Shown: positions 13,857 through 37,540, numbered from the whole stretch's first letter. The stretch: 63,967 nucleotides of DNA, filler included, from Octopus bimaculoides (GCF_001194135.2; 7 parts of 7 records of this genome joined end to end with filler, not necessarily neighbours in it); one strand, 5' to 3'. Made by a program: numbers and translations. Notes: a model not told the origin generated them from the sequence alone.

Positions 13857-14440
13857 AAATTAGAAATGATCAAATTATAAATCTCACAGAGAGACTTAAG
13901 CGGCCGTGTTACGATAAAGCTGTTGTATATTGTCAACTTAATGTAACAATCCCAATAAGGGAATCATACTACTGCTATTTACCCTTAGGAAGCTGGATCG
14001 CTTCGTGTCGGCCTTGGCACATTTCCTGTGTCCTTATCTTTATGAGGGGGAGACAAACACCTCCACCCAGCCTAGCCTGCATTCATAGACATGTTTCTGA
14101 GTCTTTGCTCGTCATCAGTTTGAAGTAGCACGATTAGCTGGCTGAAGATGTCTATCAAGCTCTCACAAACATATTTCTAGTGAAGACACATTCACTGATT
14201 ACAAAAATTAGAAATAATCTAATTATAAATCTCACAGAGAGAATTAAGCAGCAGTGTTACGATAAAGCAGTTGTATACTGTCAACTTAACGTGACAGTTC
14301 CAATAAGGAAATCATACTGCTGCTATTTAGCCATAGGAAGCTAGACCGCTTCCTGTTGGCCTTGACACATTTTCTGTGTCCTTATGTTTATGAGGGGGAG
14401 ACAAGCACCTCCACCCAGCCTAGCCTGCATTCAGGGACAT
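13857..14440 (-). mobile_element. Tandem HHR-containing retrozyme-like element, ~1.7 monomers of 348 bp
   Basis: aattataaatctcacagagaga recurs at 13873 and 14221; HHR at 14082-14124; possible imperfect TSD gtctaatccag (13846-13856) / gtctattcaag (14441-14451). Confidence 0.8.
14082..14124 (-). ncRNA. Minimal type-I hammerhead ribozyme motif
   Basis: ttcaaa-CTGATGA-c.gag.caaaga.ctc.a-GAAA-CATG-TC-tatgaa: full core, helix I 5/6 pairs, helix II 3 bp, palindromic CATG helix III. Confidence 0.78.
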
Positions 14441-14504
14441 GTCTATTCAAGGTGTTCGAGATATTGCAAAACACCGTCAAGATCATTGTCAAAATTTGGA
14501 AAAC

Positions 14505-14760
14505 ATTGACGACGTTTGTCCCCTTATGTTTAGCCCCTTGTGGGCAATAAAGAAATAAGAAACGTTAGCACTCCGGGCGTAATGCTTAGCGGTGTTTCGT
14601 CTGTCTTTACGTTCTGAGTTCAAATTCCACCGATGTCGACTTTGCCTTTTATCCTTTCGGAGTTGGTAAATTATTTACCAAATGCGTACTTGGGTCGATC
14701 TAATCGACTGGCCCCTCTCTCCAAAAATTTCGGACCTTGTGCCTAGAGTGGAAAAGAATT
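14505..14760 (+). mobile_element. SINE family B: tail joined directly to a 5'-clipped second copy
   Basis: gccccttgtgggcaataaagaaataag|aaacgttagcactccgggcg...gagttcaaattcc...ggtcgatctaatcgactgg. Confidence 0.85.
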
Positions 14761-15199
14761 TTGTCTAAATTTTACAGAAACGAGAAAACCTGTGTATGTT
14801 GGGTGTTCTGCAGTGTGAAGGTAACTGAAAACACGTGACTGCGAAGTGAAATTCATAGCATTGAAAGCAAGCTTTCCCAGGTCGGTTCTAAAAACGAATC
14901 CATATAATTCCTCTTCGCATTATACCACCACCTACACCAACACTAGCGCCACCGATGCCGCTGCCATCAACTTCACCATCACCATTCATCCTTGCAGTGC
15001 TGCAGACAATAGAACTCAAATAACTCGTACGTATAAATCAGTTGGTATCTTCCGTACATTCGTCGCAACCATAAGAAAGAGATTGAGCATATCAGAGTGT
15101 GAATAGCCATAACAGAATTTTGGTGCATTACGAAAAATTCTATAGTTTCAAATTAAAAAAACAACTAAAAGAAAGCAAACAAAAATAAAACAAACCACA

Positions 15200-15410
15200 T
15201 ATTCACTGTTTTCTTTTTACTAGACATACATAGTATACGATTATTTTTCTCGAGTCTATCAACTGTTCTCCCGTACTGTTTTTTTCCTTTCTTTTTTCTT
15301 CGTTTATTTTTTTGGACTTCGTTATATGTATTTTATCTGCTATCTCTATTCTGCAAGCTTGAAGAAAGAAAATGCTGTTTCTTTTTCTTCCTTTTTTTTT
15401 TCGATTTTCC
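15200..15410 (-). repeat. AT-rich ~210-bp repeat, inverted partner of 13125-13335
   Basis: Reverse complement aligns with 13125-13335. Confidence 0.85.
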
Positions 15411-16693
15411 TTTTTTTTTTTTTTTACTAATTCTATATTCTTATAACAATCAAATGTTTTATTTATTTTATTTATTTTTGCTATTTTTTTGTTATTTACA
15501 TTCGGGTCAGATTCACGTAATTCATTCTTTTCCTTTATTTATTTATTTTATTTTGAATCTCGTTATTGAATCAAGAAGCAAATCTTTGTATTTGGATTGG
15601 ATAACTGTAAAGGAATAAAAAAATAACCACGAGAAAAAAATGCCAAAAAAAAAAGGAAAAAAAAACTATATAAGAAACAACCAACAGGTAATAAAATACA
15701 AAATGCAACGTATATATATATATACACCCACATAAATATATATATACATCTATGCATACTTGTCTATCCATAATGCATACGTATATATATACATATATAC
15801 ATACGTGTACGTATCTATCTAGATCTATATCAACAGAAATATATTTTGGTAAAACACAATATTCTCTACGTACTATGAGGAGAGAGAACAAAAAAAATAT
15901 ATAAATCTATTAAGTTAATCAGCCAAAAAAAAAAATGTAAGATGAAAAAAATATATATTATATTCATCTAATTCTATGTAATAACTAAGGATTTAATCCT
16001 GTTTCAAAGTATAAAAGGCCCCTTTCAAATATCCTTTATCGTATCATACTATACACTTCAAAGGCTACATTGAAATGTTATTTTCTGTGTTTAATAGCAT
16101 CTAGTAACCACATTTTATTGCCTCTGCTATCGTTTAGTGACAATAAAACCGTATTGTAATGATATATAAAAGACTTGGAAACTTCAGTCATCTCCCAATT
16201 TCACACGTGACATAGATGTACAAAGGAAATTATATTCTTTGAGGAGTAGGGGTAGATTTTTATTCGGACAGAAAAGTAGCTGGGTCCTTGTAGTCGTAAT
16301 AGTTGTTGCCGTTATTATCTTTGTCGTTGTAGCCCTTCTTATCGATTTTGTTTCTAGTTGTGGTTTTTTTAGTCCACAATTGCCAACCTCATATCAACCC
16401 TGATCGAGCATTCTCAACGAAACAGGTATGGTGATTGATCTATTGAGCCTTGGCTGTACGGTTAAGAATTTCGAATTTAGTTTCAAGCAAATATCGCTTC
16501 AGGTTCAATCCGACTGTAGAGCAACGTAATCATATGTGATTGTCTTTTATTCGTTACTCTTGCCGCCAAATAACGTATCCCTTGTGAATGAAACTTGACG
16601 CAAAAACATTTATTGGCAACAGATGGTTCCAATACACAGGTATATATGCACACACACACGTATATATATATATATATATATAATATATATATA

Positions 16694-16734
<41 letters not shown>

Positions 16735-16815
16735 AACATAGTTAAGGGATCAGCAACAGTTGCTTCATCACNNNNNNNNNNNNNNNNNNNNNNNNNNNNN
16801 NNNNNNNNNNNNNNN

Positions 16816-16827
16816 TTAATTAATTAA
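16816..16827. other. Assembly spacer TTAATTAATTAA inside a 100-bp gap; also at 22952, 30695, 51274, 58578 and 62798
   Basis: Identical 12-mer centred in N runs (44 N each side where counted); stop codons in all six frames. Confidence 0.95.
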
Positions 16828-16902
16828 NNNNNNNNNNNNNNNNNNNNNNNNNNNNNNNNNNNNNNNNNNNNTATATATATAGATAGATAGATAGATAGAT
16901 AT

Positions 16903-16969
<67 letters not shown>

Positions 16970-17135
16970 CACGACGGGCTTCCTTCAGTTTCCGTCTACG
17001 AAATCCACTGACAAGGCTTTGGTCGGCTCGATGCTATAGTAGAAGACACTTGCCCAAGTTGCCATGCAGTGGGACTGAAACCGGAACCATGTGATAGGTA
17101 AGCAAGCTATTTAGCACACAGCCACTCTTGCGCCT
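16970..17135 (-). mobile_element. SINE family A head
   Basis: Reverse complement of aggcgcaagagtggctgtgtgc...ggtttcagtccc...gacggaaactgaaggaagcccgtcgt. Confidence 0.88.
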
Positions 17136-17382
17136 ATATATACATGTATATATAGATATAATTATATGTGCGTGTGTGTATTAATATTTAGTTTAAGTAA
17201 CAGAGTGACTCAATTTGCAAGAGTTTCGTGCGTTGTCATTTATCAAACTGGTTTGATAAGTGCCTAAGCACGAATCTCGAGGACATTGAGTCACTCTGTT
17301 ACCGCTGTTAAATATTAATAAAGATATACATTTACTCATAGTTTGACTTCTATTTTTCCTCTTTGCATCAACATGCCTACAT

Positions 17383-17427
<45 letters not shown>

Positions 17428-20400
17428 NNNNNNNNNNNNNNNNNNNNNNNNNNNNNNNNNNNNNNNNNNNNNNNNNNNNNNNNNNNNNNNNNNNNNNNNN
17501 NNNNNNNNNNNNNNNNNNNNNNNNNNNNNNNNNNNNNNNNNNNNNNNNNNNNNNNNNNNNNNNNNNNNNNNNNNNNNNNNNNNNNNNNNNNNNNNNNNNN
17601 NNNNNNNNNNNNNNNNNNNNNNNNNNNNNNNNNNNNNNNNNNNNNNNNNNNNNNNNNNNNNNNNNNNNNNNNNNNNNNNNNNNNNNNNNNNNNNNNNNNN
17701 NNNNNNNNNNNNNNNNNNNNNNNNNNNNNNNNNNNNNNNNNNNNNNNNNNNNNNNNNNNNNNNNNNNNNNNNNNNNNNNNNNNNNNNNNNNNNNNNNNNN
17801 NNNNNNNNNNNNNNNNNNNNNNNNNNNNNNNNNNNNNNNNNNNNNNNNNNNNNNNNNNNNNNNNNNNNNNNNNNNNNNNNNNNNNNNNNNNNNNNNNNNN
17901 NNNNNNNNNNNNNNNNNNNNNNNNNNNNNNNNNNNNNNNNNNNNNNNNNNNNNNNNNNNNNNNNNNNNNNNNNNNNNNNNNNNNNNNNNNNNNNNNNNNN
18001 NNNNNNNNNNNNNNNNNNNNNNNNNNNNNNNNNNNNNNNNNNNNNNNNNNNNNNNNNNNNNNNNNNNNNNNNNNNNNNNNNNNNNNNNNNNNNNNNNNNN
18101 NNNNNNNNNNNNNNNNNNNNNNNNNNNNNNNNNNNNNNNNNNNNNNNNNNNNNNNNNNNNNNNNNNNNNNNNNNNNNNNNNNNNNNNNNNNNNNNNNNNN
18201 NNNNNNNNNNNNNNNNNNNNNNNNNNNNNNNNNNNNNNNNNNNNNNNNNNNNNNNNNNNNNNNNNNNNNNNNNNNNNNNNNNNNNNNTATATATATATAT
18301 ATATATATTATCTTAGTTGAAAAACTTCGCTAAGATAGATATGTTAACAGTTACCAGGGTAGCAAAATTCACAAAGAAACTGGGATATTATACCTGGTTA
18401 AGGGGTAGAAATTATATGTTAAAGTGATGTATTTTGAGTTGATATCATAAAGAATAAATGGAGCAAAACGCATATGATAAATAAGTTCCTTTAATATATA
18501 TATATTCTTTGTCAAAGTAATACATACGACATTTTTAGTGCAAATATTTTCTCCCAACCAAAATTTGAACATCGCGTTTACTCTCTACCAGTATTTTTTT
18601 TTTCAATTATCACCACGAATCATAGAGTAGACATTGCTTTATGTCAGAATTATATGGATATCTTAAAACAGCTTATAAAATTTTACAACTGTCGGTGTCC
18701 TAAAAATGAAAGCACAAAATTCATGAGAATTCGCAGTATTCCTTTCATATGAAACAATAGAACAATGTTTATATTAACATGATCCAAATTAGAATTATTA
18801 CTAAAATATAAACATAAGTTAGTCGCAGTGACTTTTACTTCAGGCAACCGTTGTTTTGTATCCTTTTATAAACTTGTGTACTCTTTCTGTATTTGAATAA
18901 TTATCACTTTATAGACTTTACGCTAGTGACAATGTATTCTATTGGTCTCATCATGATGAAAGGCTAATTATGACTTTTCAACTCTATTATGTATTGCCTT
19001 TTTTATTTCACTATTGTTAATTGAAATATTAATTGCATCTTCTTAAAATGAAATTGATTTTTAATTAACACTGTTCATTATATATTTTCATGAAATACAC
19101 GTACAACTAACGTCTGCTAGCTGTCAAATGATTTGTAATATAAATAAAGGAATAAGTAGCGGTTTCGTTCCGCACTTCACAGTATTCGAATTTCATGAGT
19201 TTGAGGTGGAAACCATATTCAAACTGCAGAGTGACTACACAAGAAAACGTCATATTCTAGATGCTATTATATGGAAATAATGTTACGTGAAGTATCATTA
19301 TAAATTAAGTCACGACAGGTAAATTTCTCAACGTTGCTCATGAATGTTACACGAGAGTTTACGCGTCCCACTCAGACAATACTCTCGAAACATACTGAAT
19401 AAAAATTAAGTAACGAAACATTATATCAGTTATATAAATAGTTAAGGAATTTATAAATGATATTCTACAAAAAATTGATGCCAATTACATTTTTTAATGC
19501 ATTTCAATTTAGCTTAATGTTTACAACGTACAAGGTATGATTTGCACTTTGTGAAACCGCTTGACTCATGAGCCAATTTAGCCACAATTACAACTGGACT
19601 TTTCAATTTTAATATATTTCCACAGCATATAAATAAATTACGGACCTAGCATTTCTTGCCTTAGTATTTGTCAACCTGTGTATTTCATCTATGAGTGTAA
19701 AATAAATCTGCTGGTTATTAACGGGAACAAAATATATATACTTATTTTCTTCAGTTCTATGTAGCGGTCTGTATCATAACGCATATGCATATATGTGTAT
19801 GTATATGCTTATATGTGTGTGTGTGTGTGTGTGTATATTCCTGCCTCAAGGCTTTCACTCCACACACACCAGATCTAATTGATTCATCTCTATTAGTCGA
19901 AAGATACTTGTTACTTTTTGTTTGTAATTGAGTAACATTTTCTCCACTTTTTTCCTTTGTTTTTGTTTTTTTCTGTACTCTCGTACACATTCGCATGCTT
20001 TCTCGCAAAATATTTAATGTTCTTAGCTTAGGTTTTTGGAGCCAGCCAGATTTGAACAGTCTCAAGTGTAACCGGCGGAAACTGAAAGGATAATCTGGAA
20101 ACTTGACTAATGAAAGAAGAGCACGAATGGCCCGTCCATGTTTTGTCCAGTGCGTCTTTTTGCTGTTTCCTCTGTCCGTCTTCGTATCGTTTGTCCGGAT
20201 GTTTCTATTGTCGTCCGTTGCGTTCTTGTTACAGTTTAGTAAACTTATAAAAACGAAAGGGAATAATAGACTACGCGCGTTTCGTGACCACATAATAGTG
20301 GAAAAGATCTGTGCAATCTACAATAAATCGATCTAGAGAAGTTCCGCTCAAAATGAGGACACTCTTCAGGTCTTGTAGATTCAAAAAACGTATCCTAATA

Positions 20401-21133
20401 TTTGAAAATGCAAAAAAGCACTAATATATATATATATATATATTAATTGTGTTGGTGCCCAATGAAATGAGGATAATAAATAAGTATTTTTTCTGACTAC
20501 TCAAAACACCAATATCATAGTTTTGTGTTTAACCGTTCTTAACCATTACAACCTAATAAAACTGTGTTGTTCACAATGATTTTTATAAATACATGAGGTC
20601 TCATAAATATACTAGACCATTGAATGAGTTTCTTTCAGTTATTCAACATGGCAGATGCAGAGCCAAGGCTCCATGAAATCACTTGCCTTATGATTTAAAG
20701 AAGAAGGTCAAACATGTTTATTGTGTTGTATGGCAGAAGAAACCCTGTTATGAATATATAAACTATGATCATACTACTGGAACGGTCTTGACGATAGGTA
20801 CACTCCATCTGAAAACATCGAATATATCATATTAACGAAAGAACTCTTTAATGCTTAGCTCTACTACATTTCGCCTACCATAAATATTGTATTGATTTAG
20901 AAGATACAAATAAAAAAAGTAGACTGACTTTAGACGATAACAAATTTCTTCAAAGATAAAACGTACAATTAAAAAGAAACTTTCCTACAGTCTAAGTTAT
21001 CATTTTCATCCAAATACTTATAACATCAAACAGTACTGTCTTTTTAGAGAAAGAACGTAAAGGATGGGTTAAATACGAACAACAATACTTAGTTTATTTA
21101 GCCATTTAACATTATTATTATTGTTGTTGTTGC

Positions 21134-21191
<58 letters not shown>

Positions 21192-22289
21192 TGTGTTTAT
21201 TTGAAAACATGAAATTTCTAATTCCACAAAACAATCAACACACATCAACGGAAATATATTTCTTTTCTTTTATGTAGAAAATATATTAATTTTAAAAGCA
21301 TATATATGTTGAATGTCATAATCATTTTTTTCTGATGAAACAGAAAATGTATTCATAAAACGACAGATGCCATTGTACGTTGAAAACATTTCTTTATATT
21401 TAAATTTCAGACATTCGATATTCATGCAGAATTTTTTGTTAAAAATTTATAACTTCCATTCCTCACTATATATCTATAAAGTGTCCAAAAAATACTTGAT
21501 ATATGCAAAATTATTCACTAAAATTTCGCAACTACATTTTAAAACAAAAGTGTGTAATCTACTCCTATTACAGCAATAGAAATAGTCTTGTATTCACTGT
21601 GAGCAATAAAAATATGACTATTCTTATTGTGTTCATTTCCATTAGAATACCTCTTACGAGATTATGTGTCTTAGTTACGACGTATTTTCTATTACTAAAT
21701 AAGAAATGGTGACAGCTTAAGTCTATATTCAATACTCTGATAAATGTGAAACATTGCTACAGACAATGCTTTGCACGAGTGCATATATGTTTTGGCAAAC
21801 TACTAGGTAAGTAACCAACTTTACCAAAATGGGATGAAAGTGAAAGTAGATTTTGTGTGTAAAGATATTTTCACAAATGTGTCTGTTTGTGTGTATATAT
21901 ATATATATATNNNNNNNNNNATATATATTATGGTTGATTGATTCTTTGAATCCCCAAATTATATAACCTAATCGTACTATACAGAAATATATAAAAAATA
22001 GTTGATATTTCTATATACAATGTACATCCTACACACGTGCTCTTTCGAATTACGCTGAATATTTTCAGTGAGTAATGAGTTCGTTAAATGTACGCGTGCG
22101 TGCATATGATGGCCGTCCACTCGTGACCGAGGAAGACCATTGCTGGCCTTCAAGAACATTGTGCGTTTTAGGACTAACTTATATTTTGCATTTGCGGCTC
22201 TGTTCGTAGTTTCTAAGCCCTGCTCTTGACAACCATACACGACTGCAAACATGTCAAACCAAGTTTTCTCCATTCCCTACACCAGCAGT

Positions 22290-22625
22290 GCTCTTTCGAG
22301 CAGCGCATAAGTTCTTCATGCAGAATACATGCTCTCTCAAAAGTGTCGACCTCCTCCTTAACCCGCTTCTTCTATCTGTGGCAATAACAGACATTGTTCT
22401 CCCAGTCAGTCTACAGCATATCACAGGCCTTTAATGGGGACTTGAGACAGTCCTTAAATCGCAGCCTTGGTCACTTTCTATTCAGAAGCTCCCCATATAG
22501 CATCTGCTTAGGGATCCTGCTATCCTTCATTGAAAAAAAGTGTCTAGCTCAACATAACCGGTGCTTGTGCACCATCATCTCAATACACAAGATATCAGGT
22601 GTCCTCAGGACCCGTGTGTCTGGAG
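22290..22625 (-). mobile_element. RTE-clade LINE fragment (post-RT C-terminal region)
   Basis: Minus translation MKDSRIPKQMLYGELL...PRLRFKDCLKSPLKAC...DWEN with in-frame stops. Confidence 0.8.
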
Positions 22626-22699
22626 TTTTTAAGGTGCGTGCATATACATGCATACATACATACATTTATTTCACAAGTATATGTATACACACACACACA

Positions 22700-22868
22700 T
22701 ACAATAGGAACTTATGAAAAGTTGCTGGCTTTAAGGATATCTCGAAAGGCCTGGTTGGATTTCCAAACTTCCGAGTTCATTTACAGAAATTAGAAAGATC
22801 ACTGCAACAATGATTCTTCTGCATTACTTACTTTTACCACAAAACAGGAACCTTTCAGCACCCCCCGG
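22700..22868. mobile_element. Degenerate mariner MITE
   Basis: tgaaaagttgctgg ... caggaacctttcagcacccccc TIR-like ends; related to 4865-5051. Confidence 0.65.
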
Positions 22869-23007
22869 ACAAATGTATGAATGTATGAATGTATGAATAT
22901 ATATATANNNNNNNNNNNNNNNNNNNNNNNNNNNNNNNNNNNNNNNNNNNNTTAATTAATTAANNNNNNNNNNNNNNNNNNNNNNNNNNNNNNNNNNNNN
23001 NNNNNNN

Positions 23008-23058
<51 letters not shown>

Positions 23059-23404
23059 AGAGCATTATTATAGAACAATACCTCACGCTAAAGTACCATA
23101 ATAAACACATTTTTACCGAACGCGAGGAAATGCAACTCTCAAAAACTGGCCTCTTAAAAACAGACTGAACTATATATCGAACGATTTCACGATTATTACA
23201 ACAATATGTAACTTTCGATCATCAGTATAGTATGGTCAAAATATATAAAAATAAACAAAAGATTCAACATACGAAAACGAACACCCATGTATCCGGCATC
23301 GTACATAGAAGATTGTTTATCTCTATATATCTATGTAAAAGGCGGGCTTTTTTTGAATTGTACTTCGGTACACGTGTTTATTCAGCACTGAATATATTCC
23401 GGTT

Positions 23405-24250
23405 ATATATTTAATTAATTCAATAATAGGATAAAAAATTTTTACAAGAATTTTATCAAGTAGTTAGCGTGAAAAAACTCATAAGAGAAAAATCTATCAT
23501 TTATTCCCTAGAATATATTTATTTATATTTATATAAGGGCATTACTTTAGAAGAATGCCGCACGATTTCCAAGTAATTTTATCTTAACCTTTTTGATGCG
23601 ACTCTACTCTATGCGGTTTCTCCCCCGTCCTTCTCTAATTCNNNNNNNNNNNNNNNNNNNNNNNNNNNNNNNNNNNNNNNNNNNNNNNNNNNNNNNNNNN
23701 NNNNNNNNNNNNNNNNNNNNNNNNNNNNNNNNNNNNNNNNNNNNNNNNNNNNNNNNNNNNNNNNNNNNNNNNNNNNNNNNATATATATATATATATATAT
23801 ATAAGACTATTGAATTAACGAACATTTTTCCTTTTTTTCCCTTCTTTCCCTCACATTTTCTTTCTGTTTTCCTTCTATTTATCTTTGCCCTTTAATCGTT
23901 CCGATGATGTCTATCAATTGCAACGAGGTAAATGCAAATTTACCCCAGCTTCATATACTGAAACAGCTGTAAACATACTCCCTTCTTAATTAAATAATGA
24001 CTTTATAACACCAACGATCCACTTCTCACTGTTATTTATTGCTCCATTTCTTATCGTCTTTATATATACTAAACCACGGTTTACCTTTTAAATTACCTAC
24101 TACCGTATACCTTATAACAAGGACCATACATACTGAGGTAATACCAGGAGTGCCTATGGATATATCTATCCCTTAGATGGTTACATTACCTTTAACTTAT
24201 ACATATATATATACATATATATTATTTATATTATTTATATTATTATTATA
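23405..24250 (+). mobile_element. Probable Penelope-like terminal region, interrupted by a gap
   Basis: HHR-like motif at 23898-23974; 23461-23507 recurs inverted at ~36365-36412. Confidence 0.5.
23898..23974 (+). ncRNA. HHR-like motif with long helix II and U4C core variant
   Basis: gtt-CCGATGA-(52 nt including hairpin ggtaaat-GCAA-atttacc)-GAAA-CAGCTG-TA-aac; palindromic helix III. Confidence 0.55.
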
Positions 24251-27182: not shown

Positions 27183-27214
<32 letters not shown>

Positions 27215-27535: not shown

Positions 27536-27605
27536 AAGAGATACATGGGCAATCTCAGGTCTTACACCATGAGCGCAGACATAGACACAGATGCATATAA
27601 GAATG

Positions 27606-27690
<85 letters not shown>

Positions 27691-27959: not shown

Positions 27960-28470
27960 GGGAGAGTAAGCGTTAATAGATCTCCGCTCAGTTGCGCTTA
28001 TGGGCTACGGTAACGTTTCTTGGTACTCATCTTGCAGACTTTACTGAAGCGAAGATTGTCGTGGATTATTTCGTATGCAGAACCATGGCTAATAAGTAGA
28101 GAACACGCCACCTTATCGATGATCGCCCGTCGATTTGCCAGAAGCATTTCTCGAACTTCTCGAATCTTCAGATCATTGGTGGAGGTTGATAGACATTTTG
28201 GTTCCTCTTCGTGCTTCCTGCTTTTCCAGTCATTTTTAAACTTCGCGATCCACTCATACAAACTTGCAAACGGTAGAGCGCTGTCTTGTATTGGAAGCCT
28301 GCGATGAATTTCGGTCTCTCACACACCTTCAGACCAGCGGATCTGTAGGTTTCCTCTGTAACACAAGAAAGAAAATTGGAGTGATGAAGTTCAAACCTCG
28401 GAGAAGCAGGATTTGTAACGAATATCAATTATCACATCTAACATATATTGGATTTGTTGTTTAGAACACT
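27960..28470 (-). mobile_element. Mariner transposase N-terminal (HTH) remnant
   Basis: YEWIAKFKND...STSTNDLKIREVREMLLANRR...ISHGSAYEIIHDNLRFSKVC. Confidence 0.88.
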
Positions 28471-28519
28471 TTAGGACGCCAGAGGCTGCTTCTGTTGCTA
28501 ATAACAAAGTTATTCACAG

Positions 28520-28790
28520 CCAGTCACCTTTTCGCGGCATCACTGGTTGTTTGGCCACTGCTATACCATACCGGTTTCACTGATTCTCAACCTGGCATTC
28601 AGCACTTGACCACCTACTGCTGATGATCCACAACTTACTGTGAAATCACCTGATGCAGTTGTGCGATCCACTGGTGGTGACGAAAATTTCACCAGCCGAT
28701 AGAGTCTGTGCTTTTTAGCATTTGTCATCAACACAACATGATTTTTCAAGACGTTCGCCGCAGTCTGAGGCGTTCTAAACAACCCATCCA
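28520..28790 (+). mobile_element. Possible decayed DNA-transposase fragment (CACTA-like), tentative
   Basis: GC-richer unique block; broken peptides SPFRGITG..PYRFH and DFSRRSPQS loosely recall EnSpm motifs. Confidence 0.2.
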
Positions 28791-28881
28791 ATTTTGGTTG
28801 GATGTGCGAATTAATGTGTGTGTGCGTGCGTGCGTGCGTGCGTGCGTGCTGTGTGCATGTGTTTGTGTGCTTGCGTTTGCT

Positions 28882-29103
28882 TATGAGAGGATGCTGAAAA
28901 GTTCTTGGCTTTGTGTAAAGGAAAATACAGGAGGATCAGTTAATTATGATTTTATTCAACATATTCCCCTCTCAGATTCACACACTTTTTGCAGCGGTCC
29001 TTCAGTTTTTCTAAGCCTCGTAAAAAGAACTCTGAAGATTGGACCTCCAATCAGGCCTATCACGGTACCCTTAACACCAGGATCTTTTCAGCTCCCCATC
29101 GTA
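28882..29103. mobile_element. Complete 222-bp mariner MITE
   Basis: TIRs TAtgagaggatgctgaaaagttcttgg / ccaggatcttttcagctccccatcgTA with TA ends. Confidence 0.88.
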
Positions 29104-29514
29104 TATATTAATGCTGGGTTTTATGTCATGTTATATAGAATATTAAAAGATAATATATAACATTACAATTTAGTAGAATAAATCTTTTAAAATTTTACAA
29201 GGAAAAGTTTAACAGTAACTTCGAAATTTCAGGTTGTTCGCCTCCGTCAGACAGTGTGTCAGTGTCTCCGAAGTACGAGTAAAACGAATGTATTTACAAG
29301 ATGTAGATCCGTGACCGGAATCAGTTTTTATTGATCTCCGCAGATTAGGTGTTGCCAATCAAGAAGGCAGCTAAATTAAATTATTTGAGTTAGCTTGAGT
29401 TAAGCCATTTTATACGATAAGCATAGGGGAGGCAACTCCGGACCTGTTATGGTCTTATTGGGTTTCTTTAGTAAAACTTAGAGTTTACATTATCTTCCGA
29501 AATACAATAATCCT

Positions 29515-29625
29515 TTCTGTTATGGGCACAAGGCCTGATATTTGGCGGGGGGAGTGGACCAGTCGATTAGATCGACCCCAGTACTCAACTGGTACTTAAT
29601 TTATCGACCACGAAAGGATCTTCCG
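29515..29625 (-). mobile_element. SINE B 3' fragment
   Basis: gtcgattagatcgaccccagtactcaactggtacttaatttatcgac core. Confidence 0.75.
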
Positions 29626-29905
29626 AAGTACAATAATGTTAATACTAACTTCACTGTTGATTTTTCAAGCGGTGAAGCGATGGGTGAAAAGAGAAGAAAT
29701 AGGGAGAGTGGAGGAGAGAGACAAAGAGTAGAGGAGAGAGAGTAGACGAGAGAGAGAGAAGGAGAGAGAGAGAAGGAGAGAGAGAGAAGGAGAGAGAGAA
29801 GGAGAGAGAGAGGAGAGAGAATAGTAAACAGCAAGTTAATAAGAAAGTGAAAGTTTTGTTGTGTTTGAAAACAGATGAGACAATAACGGTGGTGGGGATG
29901 TGTCT

Positions 29906-29937
<32 letters not shown>

Positions 29938-30244
29938 AAATAAAGAGATTGAAAGAGATATTGTCTGAGAGAGAGAGAGAAAGAAAGAAGGAGAGCAGTG
30001 GGAGGTGTGTTGTTTTAGGAGAGACGCAATGGTGGTAGGAGGAAGGGGAGTTGGACAGGGGCGGAATGAGATGGAACATGGACAATGAATATGCATTACG
30101 TATGTATGTGTGCGCGGGTGTTTATGTGTTTGAGTCTATGCGTTTGTGTGCGGTGTGTGTAAACGCGTGTGCTTACGTATGTGTACGTGTGTCATTCTGT
30201 GTGCATTTGTTTTGTATGCGCATATGTATGCGCATGTACTCTTT

Positions 30245-30440
30245 TATTTTTTCTTTCAGTGATTTGACTGCGGCCATGCTGGAGCACCGCTTTTAGTTGA
30301 ACAAATCGACCCCAGGACTTATTCTTTGCAAGCCTAGTATTTATTCTATCGGGATTTTTTGCCGAACCGCTAAGTTACGGAGACGTAAACACACTAACAT
30401 CGGTTGTCAAGCGATGGTGGGGAAACAAACACAGACACAC
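30245..30440 (-). mobile_element. SINE A tail half
   Basis: tttgactgcggccatgctggagcaccgc...gccgaaccgctaagttacgg. Confidence 0.85.
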
Positions 30441-30441
30441 A

Positions 30442-30473
<32 letters not shown>

Positions 30474-30480
30474 CTTCATC

Positions 30481-30650
30481 TAAACGCAGCAGAAATATAA
30501 CAAAAGACTGTTACTCTGAGTTTCACGTTCCCGTTCATCGGATAGTTAAAACTGTCCGATGAACAGGAACGTGAAACTCAGAGTAAGTCTTTTGTCATAT
30601 TTCTGCTGCTTTTAAATAAAGCATATTACCCTACCTCTGGTATTTGAGTA
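30481..30650. mobile_element. Fold-back element: 67-bp inverted repeat, each arm carrying an HHR-like motif
   Basis: Arms 30481-30547 and 30550-30614; arm consensus actgt-CCGATGA-acg.ggaa.cgt-GAAA-ctc.a.gag-TA-acagt. Confidence 0.75.
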
Positions 30651-30750
30651 NNNNNNNNNNNNNNNNNNNNNNNNNNNNNNNNNNNNNNNNNNNNTTAATT
30701 AATTAANNNNNNNNNNNNNNNNNNNNNNNNNNNNNNNNNNNNNNNNNNNN

Positions 30751-30781
<31 letters not shown>

Positions 30782-31452
30782 GCGCCCTTTTAAAGCCTAG
30801 CCAGGCTCATGGGCCCAGTTATATATGTTATTTCATTTTATTTTACTTTACTTTTTCATTCTGCTCCGATCAAGAGAAGTGTGTTACTATTTCATTGTAA
30901 GACTCTAATCCCTCTACCGCTTACGTAGTCCTTTATAAATGTAGTGTTTGCTCTATCGACAATGAACAAATAAAGTTCAAATTTCTCTCCCCGTCCGCTA
31001 GAACTAAGTGAAAATACTTCACAGAAAAAAAAAAAGAGTAAGAAGAAAAAAAAAAAAAAAAAAAAAAGAAGATATCTCTAATTTCTAAATATGTTAAAAC
31101 TTAGCGCAGTAATGAAAATCCACTTTTAACCCCTCGTTGTGAGATATTCAACCGAAAATTGAGAATTATATCTCGGTACTTGTAACTTAAATCAACAGTA
31201 ACAGTTATTAATACTGATGATTTAATTATTATGAGACAGGATTAGTATAAATACACGACATCAAGGTAACAGCGATAGGCGAACAACTTGTACGGTCGTT
31301 ATGTGTGACTACACACACACACTCACACGTATATAAATACATAAAAATAGGAAAAATATATACAGGAAAATAGAACGAAAGTGAATTAGACGTAGATATT
31401 GTATATTTTAGACGTACATACTACACACTCACACGTGTATATATGTATATAT

Positions 31453-31528
<76 letters not shown>

Positions 31529-31574
31529 GCATATATACATATATATGTTGATACACATCATACATATGCATATG

Positions 31575-31955
31575 TACTCTGTGGTATTCGAATGTTCCCG
31601 GACCACTCCTAAAATAGCGGAGAATATTCCAGCACATAACGCATTTCTCATATTACTTCTACTTTCATACAATCTCATTTAAAGCAGCCGTCTTGGGAAT
31701 GCACACACCCATCCCAATGCGTCTTCCAAGTCTCAGAACTATCGCGGAAGTCCACCCAATGCTGCTTCTGATGCGGTTTGTATTTCATCAACTGTCTGGA
31801 AGTCACTTTCCGTTCCGACTTCATTCTGGGAAAACACGGCAAAGTCGCAGAAAGTGTACGAAGGATATGGAACTACTTAACTTGATAGCAACGCAATTCA
31901 TGTTCAGATTTTCAGTGAGAATTTCCTCCCAGACTTTGAAATCGATTCCATTCAT
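31575..31955 (-). mobile_element. Internally deleted mariner remnant
   Basis: ILTENLNMNCVAIK (cf. ILTEDLGMRRVAAK) followed by CDFAVF..DFQTVDEIQTASEA..WDGCVHSQ-like C-terminus. Confidence 0.7.
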
Positions 31956-31960
31956 AGGCA

Positions 31961-32111
31961 CAGGTGTGGTAAGAAACTTGCTTCCCAACCACATGGTTGC
32001 GGGCTCAGTCCCACTGCGTGGATCCTTGTGCAAGTGTCTTCTACTATAACCTCGGGCCCACCAAGACCTTGTGAGTAGATTTGGTAGACGGAAACTGAAA
32101 TAAGACCGTCG

Positions 32112-32113
<2 letters not shown>
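31961..32113 (+). mobile_element. SINE A head
   Basis: gtgtggtaagaaacttgcttcccaaccacatgg...gacggaaactgaaa. Confidence 0.88.
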
Positions 32114-32146
<33 letters not shown>

Positions 32147-32179
32147 TTATCTCTCTATCTATCTAGCTGTGATAGGGCA

Positions 32180-32251
<72 letters not shown>

Positions 32252-32253
32252 TA

Positions 32254-32408
32254 TACGAAGGGCTTCTTTCAGTTTCTGTATGTGAAATTCACATTCGTGA
32301 GTCTTTAGTCAGCTTGAGACTATAATAGAGGACACTTGCCCAAGGTGTCACGCAGTGGGACTGAACCCGAAACGATGTGATTGGAAACCAGCTTATCACA
32401 TAGCCACA
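32254..32408 (-). mobile_element. SINE A head, inverted relative to 31961-32113
   Basis: Reverse-complement match to family A. Confidence 0.85.
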
Positions 32409-32515
32409 ACTTTGTGTAAGCATCTCATATAATACTTGTAATACTTTAAAACGTAACAAAAATCTTAGCCGCCAGTTGGCTAAGCATCTCTTATACTGCT
32501 TATAATAGTTTAAAA

Positions 32516-33043
32516 CAGGGATGGGGAGACCCCTGCCCGCGGGCGCAATTACGCTCGCGAGCACATTTTATTGCGCCCGCAGGCTGATATACTCGTATGT
32601 ACAAAATATAAATTTTTAAATTATAAAATCAATACGACATTCGTATGTCTATTTGTGACACAGGTCGCCTTTCTGCTACGACTTGAAACGGTGAGACTCG
32701 AACAGAAAATCGTCCGGTAATTGCCATTTAAATGGAAATTTGTTTTCACTATAAAACACATATTACTAGGTTTGTACCACCCCCTTGAGACCCAACTACA
32801 CTCTTGCTGGAAAATATAGAATACCTCATAAGTAATATAAACATCCTAAATTAAGTGGCGGCGTTAATGAAGATGTTACGCGTTAGTTTAATGTGTTAAA
32901 CTTATCTTTATTAATGTATATCAAATTATACATAGATATATACAAGATTTACACAGATATAAGAGTTGGAACTTGTGATCCACCCGCAGTCCTTTTTCTT
33001 TGGAAATTTTTGCTCGCCGCACTAAAAAGTTTCCCCACCCCTG
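32516..33043. mobile_element. hAT (Charlie-like) MITE, 528 bp
   Basis: TIRs cagggatggggagac / gtttccccacccctg; 8-bp TSD gtttaaaa / ctttaaaa. Confidence 0.88.
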
Positions 33044-33519
33044 CTTTAAAACATAGCAAAAATCTTATTCGTCATTCGCAAGTGAGAATGATCAGAAGTT
33101 TGTACCATACTTTCGCTAATTGCTAAAGCTGCATATATTGTCGCGAATAGAAACGGACGTTTTTTCAACTGTCTCATCCTTCCCGTGGCAGAACTGCGAA
33201 ACTGTGATAGCTTAAGGGAAAGAACAGCTGTTCCAGCTCTCGGTTGGGGATTTATTTTCCGCTAAAGACGCTGGAGGAATGGGAAATGAGGCGCCCTGCG
33301 AAAGAAAACACATTTCCTCTCAATCCAAGAATTGAACTCGCGATCTTATTGATCGTGTGATAAACGCCCTATTCACATGCTAAAACAAATATAAGATAAA
33401 AATAAAAGGATCCTCTGATGAGGCGATACTCGTACTATGATAGTGTAGGCATCGTGGGAATTTTAACAAAAGCATGCTAACATGTTTTAATTAATAAATA
33501 TGACATTATAAGTCAGTGT

Positions 33520-34050
33520 CAAGCTGGCGGAATCGTCAGCACACCGGGCAAAATGCTTAGCGACATTTTCTCTGTCTTTACGTTCTGGTTTCAAATTTCC
33601 CTGAGGTCCATTTTGTTTTTCGTCCTTTTGGGGTCGATGAAACAATTACCAGTCAAGTATTGGGGTCGATGTCATCGACCTGCTCCTCCGCTGAACTTGC
33701 TGGCTTTGAACCAAAATTTGAAATCTATGAAATATTTCTTCGTCTCACGGTCGTAAGTTCGATCCCTGGCGGCACGATGTGTCATTGAGTAAGATACTTT
33801 ATTTCACATAAAGTACTTTATTTCTCTAATCCACCTCAGTACTTTATTTCACCTCAGCTGGCAAAAATGAGTAGTACCTGTATTGCAAAGAGCCAGCCTT
33901 GTCACACCCTGTGTGACACCGAATCTCCCTGAGAACTACGTTAAGGGTACATGTGTCTAGAGTGCTTAGCCACTTGCACATTAATTTCACGAGCAGGCTG
34001 TTCCGTTGACCGGATCAACTAGAACCCACGTCGTTACCGATGGAGTGCCA
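33520..34050 (+). mobile_element. SINE B (33520-33725) followed by a SINE with D-type tail (33735-34050)
   Basis: gctggcggaatcgtcagcacaccggg...; gttcgatccc head and gccagccttgtcaca...gatggagtgcca tail. Confidence 0.8.
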
Positions 34051-34384
34051 CTTTTTTTTTTAATATAACGTTATTTTGATATACAAAACAATTAAATATA
34101 ATTTTTATGAAATTCCAAAATATCACCTGGGGTAGTTAAATTAACATTTCTAATTAAGTAAATTAATTTGCCAGCCCGTTCCCTAAGTTGCGCTGGAGAA
34201 ACATTTATGGAATTTGTTTGCTTCCGGCTGATCTCAAAATGGTAAATGAAGATACATCCAGAAAAATTACAACGCATAGATCTACGTACGTGGCTTGTCT
34301 AATGTGACTCGGAGTATCAGCAGAGAAAAATGTCACTTTTTCAGTAAGTAAATTTACATCTCAGGGCTGCAAGATGCACACCAC

Positions 34385-34690
34385 TCAGTGGTTGAAGCGT
34401 CGAGCTTACAATCATGAAGTTGTGAGTTCGATTCTCAGACCGAACTGTGTTGTGTTCTTGAGCAAGACACTTTATTTTACGTTACTTCAGTTCACTCATA
34501 TGTAGAAACGAATTGCGACGTCACTGGTTTTCAAGCTGTATCGGCCTTTGCCGTTCTCTTGGATAACATCCGTGGCGTGGAGACGGGAGGCTGGTATGCA
34601 TGGGCGACTGTTGGTCTGCCATAAACAACCTTGCCCAGACTTGTGCAATCCCATGGTCATTCATAACCAAAGGGGGATTTTTGTGAAGGC
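34385..34690 (+). mobile_element. SINE family C, near full length
   Basis: cagtggttgaagcg...gagttcgattctc...ttgagcaagacactttatt...cataaacaaccttgccc. Confidence 0.8.
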
Positions 34691-35064
34691 GCATGACTCA
34701 GGGGTTAGGGCTTGTGTTTGTAGACATGTATGTATGTATGTATGTATGTATGTATGTATGTATGTATGTATGTATGCATGTATTATGTGTCTCTCTCTTG
34801 TTTAAAAATTGGATGATTCTGCAGTGTATCTATGTCTGCATATGACCTCACAGGCACCTACAACAATTAGCAAAAGCATGGTACATGTTACCAAGTTATG
34901 CTCGTTTGCGGGTGACGGCCGGCTCTTACTCTAACGAACTCCATATAAGTTGCTGAAGAGTTTATAATGATGTGCGCAGTCATACGCGCGCGCGCACACA
35001 CCACCTGATATTTATATATTATTTTTCTTTTTTCCTATCTTTTACTTGTTTCAGTCTATATATA

Positions 35065-35181
35065 TGATAGGCTTCTTTCAGTTTCCGTCTACCAAATCCA
35101 CTCACAAGGCTTTGGTCGGGTCGCAGGTGCCACGCAGTACGACTGAACTCGGAACCATGTAGTTGAGAAGCAAATCTCTTA

Positions 35182-35233
<52 letters not shown>

Positions 35234-35505
35234 GTTTACTGCTATATACACATATATACACACACACACATTATTTATATTTTCTTCTATCTTTTACTTG
35301 CTTCGTTCATTAAAGTGCGACCATGCTGGGGCACCGCCTTGAAGAAGTATAAGTATATATGACAGGCTTCTTTCAGTTTCCGTCTACCAAATCCTCTTAT
35401 AAGGCTTTGGTTTGCCCGAGGCTATTGTAGAAGACTCTTGCCCAAGGTTACACGCAGTGGTACCGAACCCGGAACCATGTGGTTGAGAAACCAGCTTCTT
35501 ACCAC
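35065..35505 (-). mobile_element. Two SINE A copies (35065-35185 and 35290-35505)
   Basis: ggcttctttcagtttccgtctaccaaatcc in both. Confidence 0.85.
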
Positions 35506-36568
35506 ACACACACACACACGCGCGCACACAAATTCACATATGCACATATATATATATATATATACATTCTAAGAAGTGTGTTTTTGTTTTATTGGCCAAT
35601 GTCTTTATTGTTGTTATGATGTTTTGATCATCTTTGGTGTGTTTTTTTATTGGGTCTTCCTATCCTCTACCGCATTTTCCCGTTTGGTTCGAGCTTCAAC
35701 CTGATCACTTAACCAGCATGAAAGAGCAGCTCAAATCTCCTTCAAATCCAGCTTTACTAAATGTTGTTATTGGCATACAGAAACATGAGATGCATTTTTG
35801 ATTGTTGGTCTGCTGGGTCAGGACTGATTTCAAGATAAAAAAACAATATCACCAATATCGTAAGAACTTATTGAAAACATTCCTGGCGTAGAACATAATA
35901 TTTTTGGCGTAGATAACAACTGGAATATCAAAGCAACTTCAGAGCAGCTTTCTGAAGATTCTACATCTCATTCATTTCATATCACTCTTGTATCCCATGG
36001 CAGGGTGGGATATTCGGCACGATTAAAAGGACAATTTTAATTCGTTCTGTGAAAATTTTCACTCCACCTACACAAAACTATATCAGTTGTTTCTTAAGGT
36101 TTTATCTATAAGATATAAACATTACATTGTAACATATACGTGTTTCATGAAGCGAGCAATGGTTAACCACAAAAATTTACTTCCTAATTCTAGGAATGGG
36201 TGTAATACATACTATACAGCAATGTTTTTTTTTGTCAGCCACCTCTTCAAAATAAAAATAAAAGCGCGAACACAATAATGTAATAAAGTTTTATTATATA
36301 CTAAATGTTAAAAAATACACATCAGTGAGTGGATTTGGTAAACANNNNNNNNNNTATATTTATATGGAATAAATGATGGATTTTTCCCTTATGAGGTTTT
36401 TTCATGCTAACGACTTCATTCTGTTGAGATAGATATAATAAGTATCAGTTAAGCATGTTGTCCGTCGCAGTAACGATTCTAGCAGCACGCTACCTTTGGC
36501 CTTGACACATTTCTTGTGTCCTTATGTTTACAAGGGGGAGCCAGCACCTCCACTCAGCTAAGCCTGCA

Positions 36569-36611
36569 TCCAGAGAAATGTTTCTGAGTCTTTGCTCGTC
36601 ATCAGTCTGGA
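36569..36611 (-). ncRNA. Minimal type-I HHR motif with helix III mutation
   Basis: tccaga-CTGATGA-cgagcaaagactca-GAAA-catt-TC-tctgga; perfect 6-bp helix I; CATG changed to CATT. Confidence 0.72.
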
Positions 36612-36903
36612 GTAGCATGGCCTGCTGGTCGAAGATGCCTGTCAAGCTCTTGCAAACATGAAATACATTCACTGATTTCAAATTTAGAAATAATACATTT
36701 CTAAATCTCTCAGAGAGATTTACGCAGTAGTTATACGATGAAGTAGTTGTATGCTGTCGACTTAATGTGACAGTCCCATGAAGAGAATAATACTACCGTT
36801 GTTTAAACCTAGGAAGCTACACCGCTTCTTGTCGGCCTTGACGCATTTCCTGTGCCCTTATGTTTACAAGGGGGTGGGGCACCTCCACCCAGCTAAGCCT
36901 GCA

Positions 36904-36937
36904 TCCAGAGACATGTTTCTGAGTTTGCTCGTCATCA
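36904..36937 (-). ncRNA. 5'-truncated HHR motif (second monomer)
   Basis: TGATGA-cgagcaaactca-GAAA-CATG-TC-tctgga; lacks C3 and the 5' strand of helix I. Confidence 0.65.
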
Positions 36938-37099
36938 TCCCAGGTCTAAACAATTTCCTAGTTTCCTAGGTCTAAACAACAGTAGTATTATTCCCTTCAT
37001 GGGACTGTCACATTAAGTTGACAGCATACAATTACTTCAACGTAAATCTGCATAAATCTTTCTGAGAGATGTAGAAATGTATTATTTCTAAACGCTACC

Positions 37100-37540
37100 T
37101 TTGGGTTCAAATTTTGGGACGGGGCCAAGAATTTTAAGAAGAGTGGGCAAGTCAATTACATCAGCTGAACTTTATTTCATCGACCCCAAATGGATGAAGG
37201 GCAAAGTCGACCTCAGCAGGACTTGAACTTAAAACGTAAAATTCGGGAACAAACACCGCTATGCATTCGTTTCTGACGAACTAATAATGCTACCAATTCA
37301 CAGAGTTTAGGGTTTGACATTCAACCACAAGGCCAGCAATTTTCAAAGGAAGGGGTTCGTGAAATCACTGACCCTATTCTTTAACTTATATTGTATTTTC
37401 TCGACCCTGGAAGGATGAAAGGCAAAGATGGCTTCGGCGAAAATTGAAATCGGAATATAAAGAGCCGAATACAATACTGCTTTTTACAGTCTAAGTTCAG
37501 ATCCTGCTGACGTCACCTTTGCCTTTCACCCTTCCGGGGC
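37100..37540. mobile_element. Cluster of decayed SINE B fragments
   Basis: ggcaaagtcgacctc / aaggatgaaaggcaaag / ctttgcctttcaccc cores. Confidence 0.75.

What the first reader, a model, noticed from the sequence alone, without database searches (positions are those of the whole stretch)
13857..37104. Octopus-type retrozyme candidate: ~340-nt tandem non-coding monomer carrying a minimal hammerhead ribozyme, at two independent loci
Seen: the same non-coding unit is tandemly repeated at 13857-14440 (period 348) and 36500-36937 (period 336). Three HHR copies (14082-14124, 36569-36611, 36904-36937; minus strand) give the consensus tccaga-CUGAUGA-cGAGcaaagaCUCa-GAAA-CAUG-UC-ucugga. This has a complete catalytic core, a 6-bp helix I, a 3-bp helix II and a palindromic CAUG in place of helix III. 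Known: Penelope-like elements and metazoan non-LTR retrozymes (a few hundred nt, described in e.g. corals, mussel and axolotl) carry such minimal type-I HHRs, which cleave as dimers and release monomers that circularise. Inference: this is a cephalopod retrozyme or Penelope-derived family that could yield ~340-nt circular RNAs. I do not know of a description in octopus but cannot search. Each genomic copy here has a lesion, and all share a non-canonical C.A pair closing helix II.
Basis: partly seen in the sequence, partly recalled or inferred. Interest (0 to 1): 0.88.

Follow-up and report, generated by a model that had tools for sequence, protein, structure and literature searches.

The report
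Hammerhead retrozyme with Penelope-type insertion scars
These are two decayed insertions of an abundant, non-coding repeat that carries a hammerhead-ribozyme motif and was likely pasted in by Penelope-type retrotransposon enzymes; the class is known from other animals, and this family stands out only because its ribozyme lacks a normally conserved base pair while the rest of its fold is kept.

Summary
The repeat is real: a 335-348-nt unit with a type I hammerhead, about 1.7 units at each of two loci. Sequencing runs from three organisms show a high-copy family with an intact core. The only four strongly variable ribozyme positions form two compensatory helix I pairs. The C·A at the base of helix II is family-wide. 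Locus 2 has a perfect 13-bp target duplication and an inverted arm that abuts the direct arm on the template, with target microhomology at the second start. Both loci share one 3' end about 230 nt past the cut. The units within each locus are each other's nearest kin (19 columns against 0). This fits a non-LTR retrozyme copied by a Penelope-type reverse transcriptase. Neither locus holds two complete ribozymes, so neither should release a circle. RNA reads show no cut ends. Cleavage, circles, the helper element and the octopus identity are untested. This scan has already reported similar families on other pieces of this genome and in other genomes. Verdict: new member of a known kind.

The parts
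13857..14440 (-). Locus 1 insertion: about 1.7 units (584 nt). The RNA-sense 3' end is at 13857 (unit column 231); the 5' end lies 5-7 nt beyond the second cut site.
14088..14435 (-). Locus 1 monomer, cut site to cut site (348 nt, GC 40.5%); predicted circle z = -6.9
14082..14124 (-). Type I hammerhead, intact core, predicted cut between 14088 and 14087; helix I has 5 of 6 pairs (A·A at 1.2/2.2)
14430..14442 (-). 3' half of a second hammerhead (palindrome, cut site, 3' strand of helix I); the 5' half is absent
13846..13856 (+). Possible eroded target-site duplication, left copy (9 of 11 match to 14441-14451); weak
14441..14451 (+). Possible eroded target-site duplication, right copy; weak
36487..36499 (+). 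Target-site duplication, left copy (13 of 13). It is host-repeat sequence with microhomology to the unit at the point where the direct arm starts.
36500..36937 (-). Locus 2 direct arm (438 nt): unit column 76 back through one whole unit to 28 nt beyond the second cut site
36575..36909 (-). Locus 2 monomer, cut site to cut site (335 nt); predicted circle z = -3.8, with helix I formed in the minimum-energy fold
36569..36611 (-). Type I hammerhead, 6 of 6 helix I pairs; private lesion G16.2>U at 36577 (the family has G in over 99% of DNA depth)
36904..36937 (-). 5'-truncated hammerhead: C3 and the 5' strand of helix I lost at the inversion junction; 2-nt deletion in loop 2
36938..36957 (.). Inversion junction filler (20 nt) made of short re-copies of the end of the inverted arm (likely stutter of the reverse transcriptase)
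   Evidence: read from the sequence
36958..37091 (+). Locus 2 inverted arm (134 nt), unit columns 92-228; its outer end is the shared 3' terminus
37092..37104 (+). Target-site duplication, right copy (13 of 13)

Best explanation
The two loci are dead-end insertions of a high-copy, non-coding, roughly 340-nt repeat carrying a type I hammerhead motif (a non-LTR retrozyme), likely copied into the genome by the reverse transcriptase and endonuclease of a Penelope-like element. Shown: the unit, the family-wide intact core, compensatory changes in helix I, the 13-bp target duplication, the inverted arm, the shared 3' end, and that the units within a locus are each other's nearest kin. Inferred steps: (1) intact tandem source loci elsewhere are transcribed; (2) two ribozymes would pair through the CAUG palindrome and cut after GUC, and the monomer may be ligated into a circle; (3) the helper enzyme would nick the target and start copying at a fixed internal site about 230 nt downstream of the cut, reading through the uncut or re-ligated junction for about 1.7 units; (4) at locus 2 the second target strand likely primed by microhomology just beyond where the first cDNA stalled (twin priming), giving the inverted arm inside one target duplication. 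The family-wide C10.1·A11.1 probably makes cutting slow or dependent on a protein.
For: Unit and coordinates. Family laid in three organisms: 866, 618 and 503 contigs on a 106-nt stretch. Inside the 43-nt ribozyme, apart from the window's private lesion, only four places vary above 15% in DNA, and they are pairs 1.1/2.1 (U-A to C-G) and 1.5/2.5 (G-C to A-U). The chance that four places form two predicted pairs is 3-4 x 10^-4. The 1.5/2.5 switch is seen in phase between locus 1 and locus 2. Two copies of the locus 1 ribozyme are predicted to pair across the palindrome. Monomer circles fold better than shuffles (z -6.9, -3.8) and better than 12 of 13 control windows. The 13-mer duplication occurs only twice in the window and is host-repeat sequence. 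The outer 3' ends fall at unit columns 231 and 228; the inverted arm stops at column 92 and the direct arm starts at column 76. The 13-nt target end scores best at the junction-equivalent site (0 of 559, 2 of 559 and 5 of 418 other positions score as high in the three unit copies). Of 208 comparable columns, 19 group the units by locus and 0 by position in the tandem. Published: a Penelope-like enzyme starts at fixed internal sites without target homology, extends both target strands and prefers uncut RNA (PMC11167929); inverted 5'-truncated copies inside 8-10-bp duplications are typical of these elements.
Against: No helper element was seen: no Penelope-type ORF in the window, no genome held, and four collection scans were empty. 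RNA reads (about 76-78 per million, summed over the family) lie on both strands about equally, 87-88% run on into unlike sequence, and no place collects ends. G10.1-C11.1, called highly conserved in Penelope ribozymes and a metal ligand, is absent. The covariation is read from separate columns, not phased reads, and partner frequencies differ by up to 42 points in run X6. The body of the unit shows no covariation support in the five window pieces (3 of 38 pairs, covariation term +1.86), and the opposite strand folds about as well. The twin-priming reading rests on one locus. The offset between the two outer ends (about 150 nt) is not the 30-40-nt Penelope tail.
Confidence: 0.75

Rival explanations
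1. The units are pseudo-LTR stumps of an autonomous Penelope-like element: 5'-truncated insertions that kept only the ribozyme-bearing end, with no independent retrozyme life cycle.
For: The fixed 3' end, inverted arm and target duplication are Penelope hallmarks. Retrozyme families match pseudo-LTRs in Xenopus (24 of 57 families matched known elements, nearly all Penelope-like). Sequence 5' of the ribozyme is heterogeneous among copies (loose ends at 36616-36626).
Against: Both loci run head-to-tail from one unit into the next with no ORF between. The ribozyme has canonical helix sizes rather than the long helix II and G10.1-C11.1 of Penelope minimal ribozymes. The monomers fold as compact circles.
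Confidence: 0.15
2. The element is mobile, but its hammerhead barely cuts. The fold is kept as a binding or folding signal for the helper enzyme, and the template is a linear, uncut tandem transcript; no circles are made.
For: C10.1·A11.1 is family-wide (A11.1 varies by 1.4% or less in DNA). Both insertions read through the cut site twice. No RNA ends pile up. In the anole element cleavage is not needed for insertion in vitro, and 8 of 9 Xenopus dimers did not cut.
Against: All core positions stay below the 8% listing level in DNA and helix I covaries. An axolotl retrozyme with a U·U mismatch at the same place still cuts and makes circles. Units group by locus, 19 columns to 0, as expected if one unit is copied repeatedly.
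Confidence: 0.3
3. It is a minisatellite spread at the DNA level, or a SINE moved by an ordinary LINE, with an incidental ribozyme-like motif.
For: Twin-priming inversions and 13-bp duplications are also left by L1-type LINEs (recalled, not from a call), and the window holds LINE remnants.
Against: Compensatory changes are confined to ribozyme pairs. There is no poly(A) or simple-repeat tail at the shared 3' end, and no Pol III A or B box matched. The tandem is regenerated per locus.
Confidence: 0.05

Closest known systems
Metazoan non-LTR retrozymes (Cervera and de la Pena 2020, PMC7229834: coral 220-245 nt, mussel 350-390 nt, axolotl 330/350 nt; vertebrate survey bioRxiv 10.64898/2026.07.22.740005)
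   Same: Non-coding unit of a few hundred nt, GC below 50%, one type I hammerhead per unit, head-to-tail copies, long target duplication, self-paired predicted circle. Helix III (one pair plus a palindromic tetraloop) is as in axolotl HHR_Amex1; the mismatch at the base of helix II is as in HHR_Amex2.
   Different: The mismatch is C·A, not U·U. No cephalopod appears in the text read (0 occurrences; supplement unreadable). The two loci are truncated and carry an inverted arm. No circles or cleavage are shown here.
Endonuclease-bearing Penelope-like elements and their pseudo-LTRs (PMC3846280, PMC8557442; mechanism PMC11167929; ribozymes PMC4209133)
   Same: Fixed 3' end downstream of a hammerhead with no target homology, partial tandem, 5'-truncated inverted copy joined head to head, long target duplication, read-through of the cut site.
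   Different: No reverse transcriptase/GIY-YIG ORF. The ribozyme lacks G10.1-C11.1 next to G12 and the long helix II. The two outer ends differ by about 150 nt rather than a 30-40-nt tail, and the second arm starts at a site with target microhomology.
Twin-priming 5' inversions of L1-type retrotransposons (recalled; no paper read)
   Same: Inverted and direct pieces contiguous on the template inside one target duplication, with microhomology at the second priming site.
   Different: The template is an ORF-less ribozyme repeat with no poly(A) tail.

Membership tests
Metazoan non-LTR retrozyme | Type I hammerhead in each unit | tested here: met
   Four full or partial copies in the window; family core intact and helix I covaries. 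Rfam does not detect it, and G10.1-C11.1 is replaced by C·A.
Metazoan non-LTR retrozyme | Head-to-tail non-coding units of 150-450 nt, GC below 50% | tested here: met
   348 and 335 nt; GC 40.5% and about 44%; longest Met-started ORFs 30 and 72 aa; two stop-to-stop frames over the units have no Pfam hit.
Metazoan non-LTR retrozyme | Dispersed, multi-copy, target duplications longer than 4 bp | tested here: met
   13-bp duplication at locus 2, weak 9/11 at locus 1; 5,475 contigs laid in one DNA run; crude bounds about 440-13,700 copies (summed depth is not a true copy number).
Metazoan non-LTR retrozyme | Monomer predicted to fold as a highly self-paired circle | tested here: met
   z -6.9 and -3.8 against shuffles, below 12 of 13 controls; covariation in the body not supported by five pieces.
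Metazoan non-LTR retrozyme | Two consecutive complete hammerheads ('active' criterion of the 2026 preprint) | tested here: not met
   Each locus has one full-length and one truncated ribozyme. This concerns these two loci; other loci of the family could not be read.
Metazoan non-LTR retrozyme | Self-cleavage in vitro, as monomer or dimer | not testable with these tools
   Bench assay needed.
Metazoan non-LTR retrozyme | Abundant linear and circular monomer RNA in tissue | tested here: inconclusive
   Reads are present but on both strands, mostly divergent or partial, with no pile-up of ends; fragmented RNA-seq cannot show circles.
Autonomous Penelope-like element / pseudo-LTR | Reverse transcriptase + GIY-YIG ORF between the repeats | tested here: not met
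   The units abut directly; none of the 8 ORFs scanned against Pfam, out of 162 listed, is of this kind.
Autonomous Penelope-like element / pseudo-LTR | Minimal hammerhead with an unpaired base after A9, G10.1-C11.1 directly before G12, long helix II | tested here: not met
   Even if C is read as the unpaired base, an extra A stands between C and G12; no indel row at 8% or more in the family (published consensus).
Autonomous Penelope-like element / pseudo-LTR | Fixed 3' end at an internal start of reverse transcription without target homology | tested here: met
   Columns 231 and 228 at two loci; RNA reads also stop matching at 36683 (83 and 72 reads, perhaps mostly one locus).
Autonomous Penelope-like element / pseudo-LTR | Adjacent inverted 5'-truncated copy inside one target duplication | tested here: met
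   Locus 2; absent at locus 1.
Autonomous Penelope-like element / pseudo-LTR | 30-40-nt tail offset between the two outer ends | tested here: not met
   The offset is about 150 nt (columns 228 and 76).
Autonomous Penelope-like element / pseudo-LTR | Sequence shared with the terminus of an autonomous family in the same genome | not testable with these tools
   No genome held; no Repbase or Dfam.

The most novel reading that the evidence does not exclude
A cephalopod retrozyme has amplified in two subfamilies across three species with a hammerhead that lacks G10.1-C11.1 yet still cuts, probably with help from the Penelope protein. Its insertions record a Penelope-type enzyme copying a small RNA circle from a fixed internal start and finishing by homology-guided twin priming, a step not found in the Penelope papers searched.
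Probability: 0.2. Interest if true: 0.6.

Novelty: new member of a known kind. Interest (0 to 1): 0.35.

Why it matters
If true, it extends animal retrozymes to (probably) cephalopods. It adds insertion-scar evidence for the proposed but unproven idea that Penelope-like enzymes mobilise them: a fixed start, read-through of the cut site, a tandem regenerated at each insertion and a twin-primed inversion. The family-wide C·A at positions 10.1/11.1, kept while helix I changes in compensatory steps, is a natural test of whether a hammerhead can work without its usual G10.1 metal ligand. The class and the Penelope link are already in print, so the gain is incremental.

Tried and rejected
Whole-genome search: no genome held. 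Rfam: no hammerhead in 36480-37110 at E<=10; in the whole window the 150 best of 330 matches were nearly all microsatellite-like miRNA models, all below their gathering scores, and 180 were not shown. Tandem Repeats Finder shows neither locus among the 150 rows displayed of 151. Ribozyme patterns in metagenome, prokaryote genome (35) and viral (36) collections: 0 matches, so no outside loci and no helper ORF. Taxon identification from a LINE fragment gave no names. Pol III A and B boxes: none matched; a T5 run sits at the 3' terminus in locus 1 only, so a Pol III end was not adopted. A second hammerhead on the plus strand near 36625-36660 was considered and rejected (no GAAA). A conserved hairpin at the 3' terminus was rejected because its register differs between loci. 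RNAalifold on five window pieces gave no covariation support. The idea that 36481-36499 is eroded element sequence was rejected because it aligns with the host repeat. Lunse et al. on small Penelope-associated hammerheads is not held and may list variants at 10.1/11.1. The supplements of PMC7229834, file 1 of PMC4209133 and the preprint's supplements could not be seen and may bear on whether an octopus family is already listed.
Full report
1. Observation. Self-BLAST of the two regions confirms one repeat family at two loci 22 kb apart. Locus 1 (13857-14440) has a 348-nt period with 89.2% identity between the overlapping copies. Locus 2 (36500-36937) has a 336-nt period with 89.7%. The monomers of the two loci are 81.5% identical. 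On the minus strand the unit carries a type I hammerhead: six-pair helix I, CUGAUGA, helix II with a six-base loop, GAAA, the palindrome CAUG, and UC. The predicted cut positions (C17) are 14088, 14436, 36575 and 36910. The core-plus-palindrome pattern occurs once in the window and in 0 of 100 shuffles. Rfam does not detect it.

2. The family. No genome is held, so I used public runs. Twenty of the 24 runs listed hold part of the unit. On 36400-37160, 5,475 contigs of one DNA run were laid. On the 106-nt ribozyme stretch, 866, 618 and 503 contigs were laid from organisms A, B and C. Crude bounds from summed depth are about 440 to 13,700 copies; the tool warns that this is no copy number. The window's G16.2>U is private: the family has G in 99.3-99.7% of DNA depth. 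Setting that position aside, only four of the 43 ribozyme positions vary above 15% in DNA: 1.1 (34/84/45%) with 2.1 (41/70/76%), and 1.5 (26/56/30%) with 2.5 (40/67/72%). In raw RNA reads of run X23 the figures are 96 of 192, 98 of 194, 95 of 191 and 88 of 189. Both are compensatory changes in helix I. The chance that four positions form two predicted pairs is 3-4 x 10^-4. Against over-reading: the columns are not phased, partner frequencies differ by up to 42 points in X6, and two subfamilies can carry linked changes. The 1.5/2.5 switch is, however, seen in phase between locus 1 and locus 2. No core position reaches the 8% listing level in DNA.

3. The odd pair. A11.1 varies by 0.3-1.4% in DNA (15% in RNA reads, 30 of 200) and C10.1 by 5-11%, mostly to U, which would give a U-A pair; there is no indel row. 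So C·A at the base of helix II is a family trait in all three organisms, not decay. Penelope minimal ribozymes have an unpaired base after A9 and a highly conserved G10.1-C11.1 (PMC4209133, parts 1-2 of 4 read; supplement passages). Reading our C as that unpaired base leaves an extra A before G12, so the motif departs from both consensuses. G10.1 N7 binds a metal ion (PMC6961537, passages). A precedent for activity despite a mismatch here is axolotl HHR_Amex2 with U·U. The one-pair helix III with a palindromic tetraloop matches HHR_Amex1, which cuts well only as a dimer (PMC7229834, passages and parts 2-4 of 6). Two copies of the locus 1 ribozyme are predicted to pair across the palindrome. 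By helix sizes the motif is the canonical metazoan type, not the minimal one.

4. Locus 2 is bounded by a perfect 13-bp duplication (36487-36499, 37092-37104) found nowhere else in the window; it is part of a host repeat. Inside lie a direct arm (36500-36937), 20 nt of filler re-copied from the end of the other arm, and an inverted arm (36958-37091). On unit coordinates (column 1 = first base after the cut; alignment A1) the inverted arm spans columns 92-228 and the direct arm starts at column 76. The gap between them is about the length of the duplicated target. That 13-mer matches the unit best there: 0 of 559, 2 of 559 and 5 of 418 other positions score as high in the three unit copies. This is the pattern of twin priming (known from L1; recalled). 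Locus 1 has one arm whose 3' end is at column 231, within 3 nt of locus 2's column 228, and a weak 9-of-11 candidate duplication. RNA reads also stop matching at 36683 (83 and 72 reads), pointing to at least one more copy with this end. Both insertions cover about 590 nt and stop inside the second ribozyme, 5-7 and 28 nt past the cut, so the template was uncut or re-ligated there. Of 208 comparable columns, 19 group the two units by locus, 0 by position in the tandem and 0 crosswise; 33 are singletons, 7 other and 149 invariant. The tandem was therefore regenerated from one unit sequence in each lineage, as copying round a circle or from a homogenised source would give.

5. Folding and expression. 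The monomers fold as circles at -116.3 and -101.0 kcal/mol (z -6.9 and -3.8). Thirteen control windows average z -0.9, and only one, an inverted repeat, is lower. The opposite strand folds about as well, and RNAalifold on the five window pieces gives no covariation support for the body. Raw RNA reads of organism A number 1,006 of 12.9 million and 906 of 12.0 million on the 761-nt stretch. They lie on both strands about equally, 87-88% run on into unlike sequence, and no place collects ends. This looks like passive read-through of scattered copies. It neither shows nor excludes circles, which fragmented and possibly polyA-selected libraries would miss.

6. Mechanism. Best reading (0.75): a non-autonomous retrozyme moved by a Penelope-type enzyme. 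A purified anole Penelope-like protein starts reverse transcription at fixed internal sites downstream of its hammerhead, without target homology. It extends both target strands, uses uncut RNA, needs protein for ribozyme cutting, and leaves no RNA-seq ends at the cut (PMC11167929, parts 1-2 of 4). Inverted 5'-truncated copies inside 8-10-bp duplications are standard for these elements (PMC3846280 and PMC8557442, passages). The fixed end, read-through and two-armed layout here match. The 150-nt offset and the microhomology at the second start do not match the 30-40-nt tail and are better explained by twin priming, on one example. Neither locus has two complete ribozymes, so neither should release a monomer; source loci are inferred elsewhere. 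Rivals: pseudo-LTR stumps of an autonomous element (0.15); a mobile element whose ribozyme barely cuts and makes no circles (0.3, partly overlapping with the best reading); a satellite or LINE-moved SINE (0.05).

7. Known or new. Non-LTR retrozymes are described in coral, mussel and axolotl (PMC7229834). A 2026 preprint (parts 1-3 of 5 read) finds them in 20 of 31 vertebrates, links them to pseudo-LTRs, sampled no mollusc by its text, and saw cutting in 1 of 9 dimers. Searches for 'hammerhead ribozyme' + 'octopus' (5 papers, 4 listed), 'retrozyme' + 'cephalopod' (2, 1 listed) and searches showed no description of a cephalopod retrozyme in the listings. An Octopus vulgaris repeat annotation has 0 occurrences of 'ribozyme' or 'retrozyme' in its main text (PMC13282606). 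Subscription papers, Dfam/Repbase and several supplements were not seen. PMC6765202, PMC544870 and PMC2837043 were seen as passages only. Earlier notes of this scan report octopus retrozymes with Penelope-type ends in other genomes and hammerhead repeats on other pieces of this genome, including a roughly 340-base family and an abundant family with a changed core. They are unchecked, and the sequence look-ups found no look-alike stretch.

8. Verdict. A real, structure-conserving ribozyme repeat; new member of a known kind; interest 0.35. The items worth a specialist's time are the family-wide C·A at 10.1/11.1 and the twin-primed insertion.

Noticed in passing
window 36597-36598 (ribozyme positions 10.2 and 10.1): At this CpG the change that makes a U10.1-A11.1 pair is commoner in DNA (10.6, 5.0, 5.2%) than its partner change that breaks a G-C pair (0.9, 1.8, 0.5%); not so in RNA reads (9.8 vs 13.6%). 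Perhaps a subfamily with a repaired pair.
   Followed up: partly
window 36612-36616 and 36566-36568: Bases flanking helix I show no variant rows, and many copies diverge just beyond 36616; this fits an internal loop 1 and a short extension of helix I under selection.
   Followed up: partly
window about 5010-5110: Near-perfect inverted repeat around a short TG/TA run (z -9.5; fold); looks like the ends of a mariner-type or miniature DNA transposon (recalled, not tested).
   Followed up: no
window 56416-57052 (+) and 3214-3773 (-): LINE-like reverse-transcriptase fragments; the first holds a 255-bp, 97%-identical tandem duplication and a weak zf-RVT match (E 0.003; atlas).
   Followed up: partly
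window 27998-28318 (-): Open frame resembling a mariner transposase remnant by eye (recalled); no Pfam hit.
   Followed up: no
window 14558-14663, 33530-33645, 37105-37260, 48817-49285, 49979-50839, 51368-51478, 52050-52118: Many copies of a SINE-like host repeat; locus 2 is inserted into such sequence.
   Followed up: partly
window 14084-14087 and 14119-14120 versus 14434-14435: The two locus 1 copies differ at helix I positions 1.1 and 1.2, and the internal copy mixes the two family helix I types; a mild hint that the template units were not identical, against a single circle.
   Followed up: partly
whole window: 6,715 N bases and dense microsatellites; the Rfam miRNA matches shown are microsatellite artefacts below gathering scores.
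   Followed up: yes
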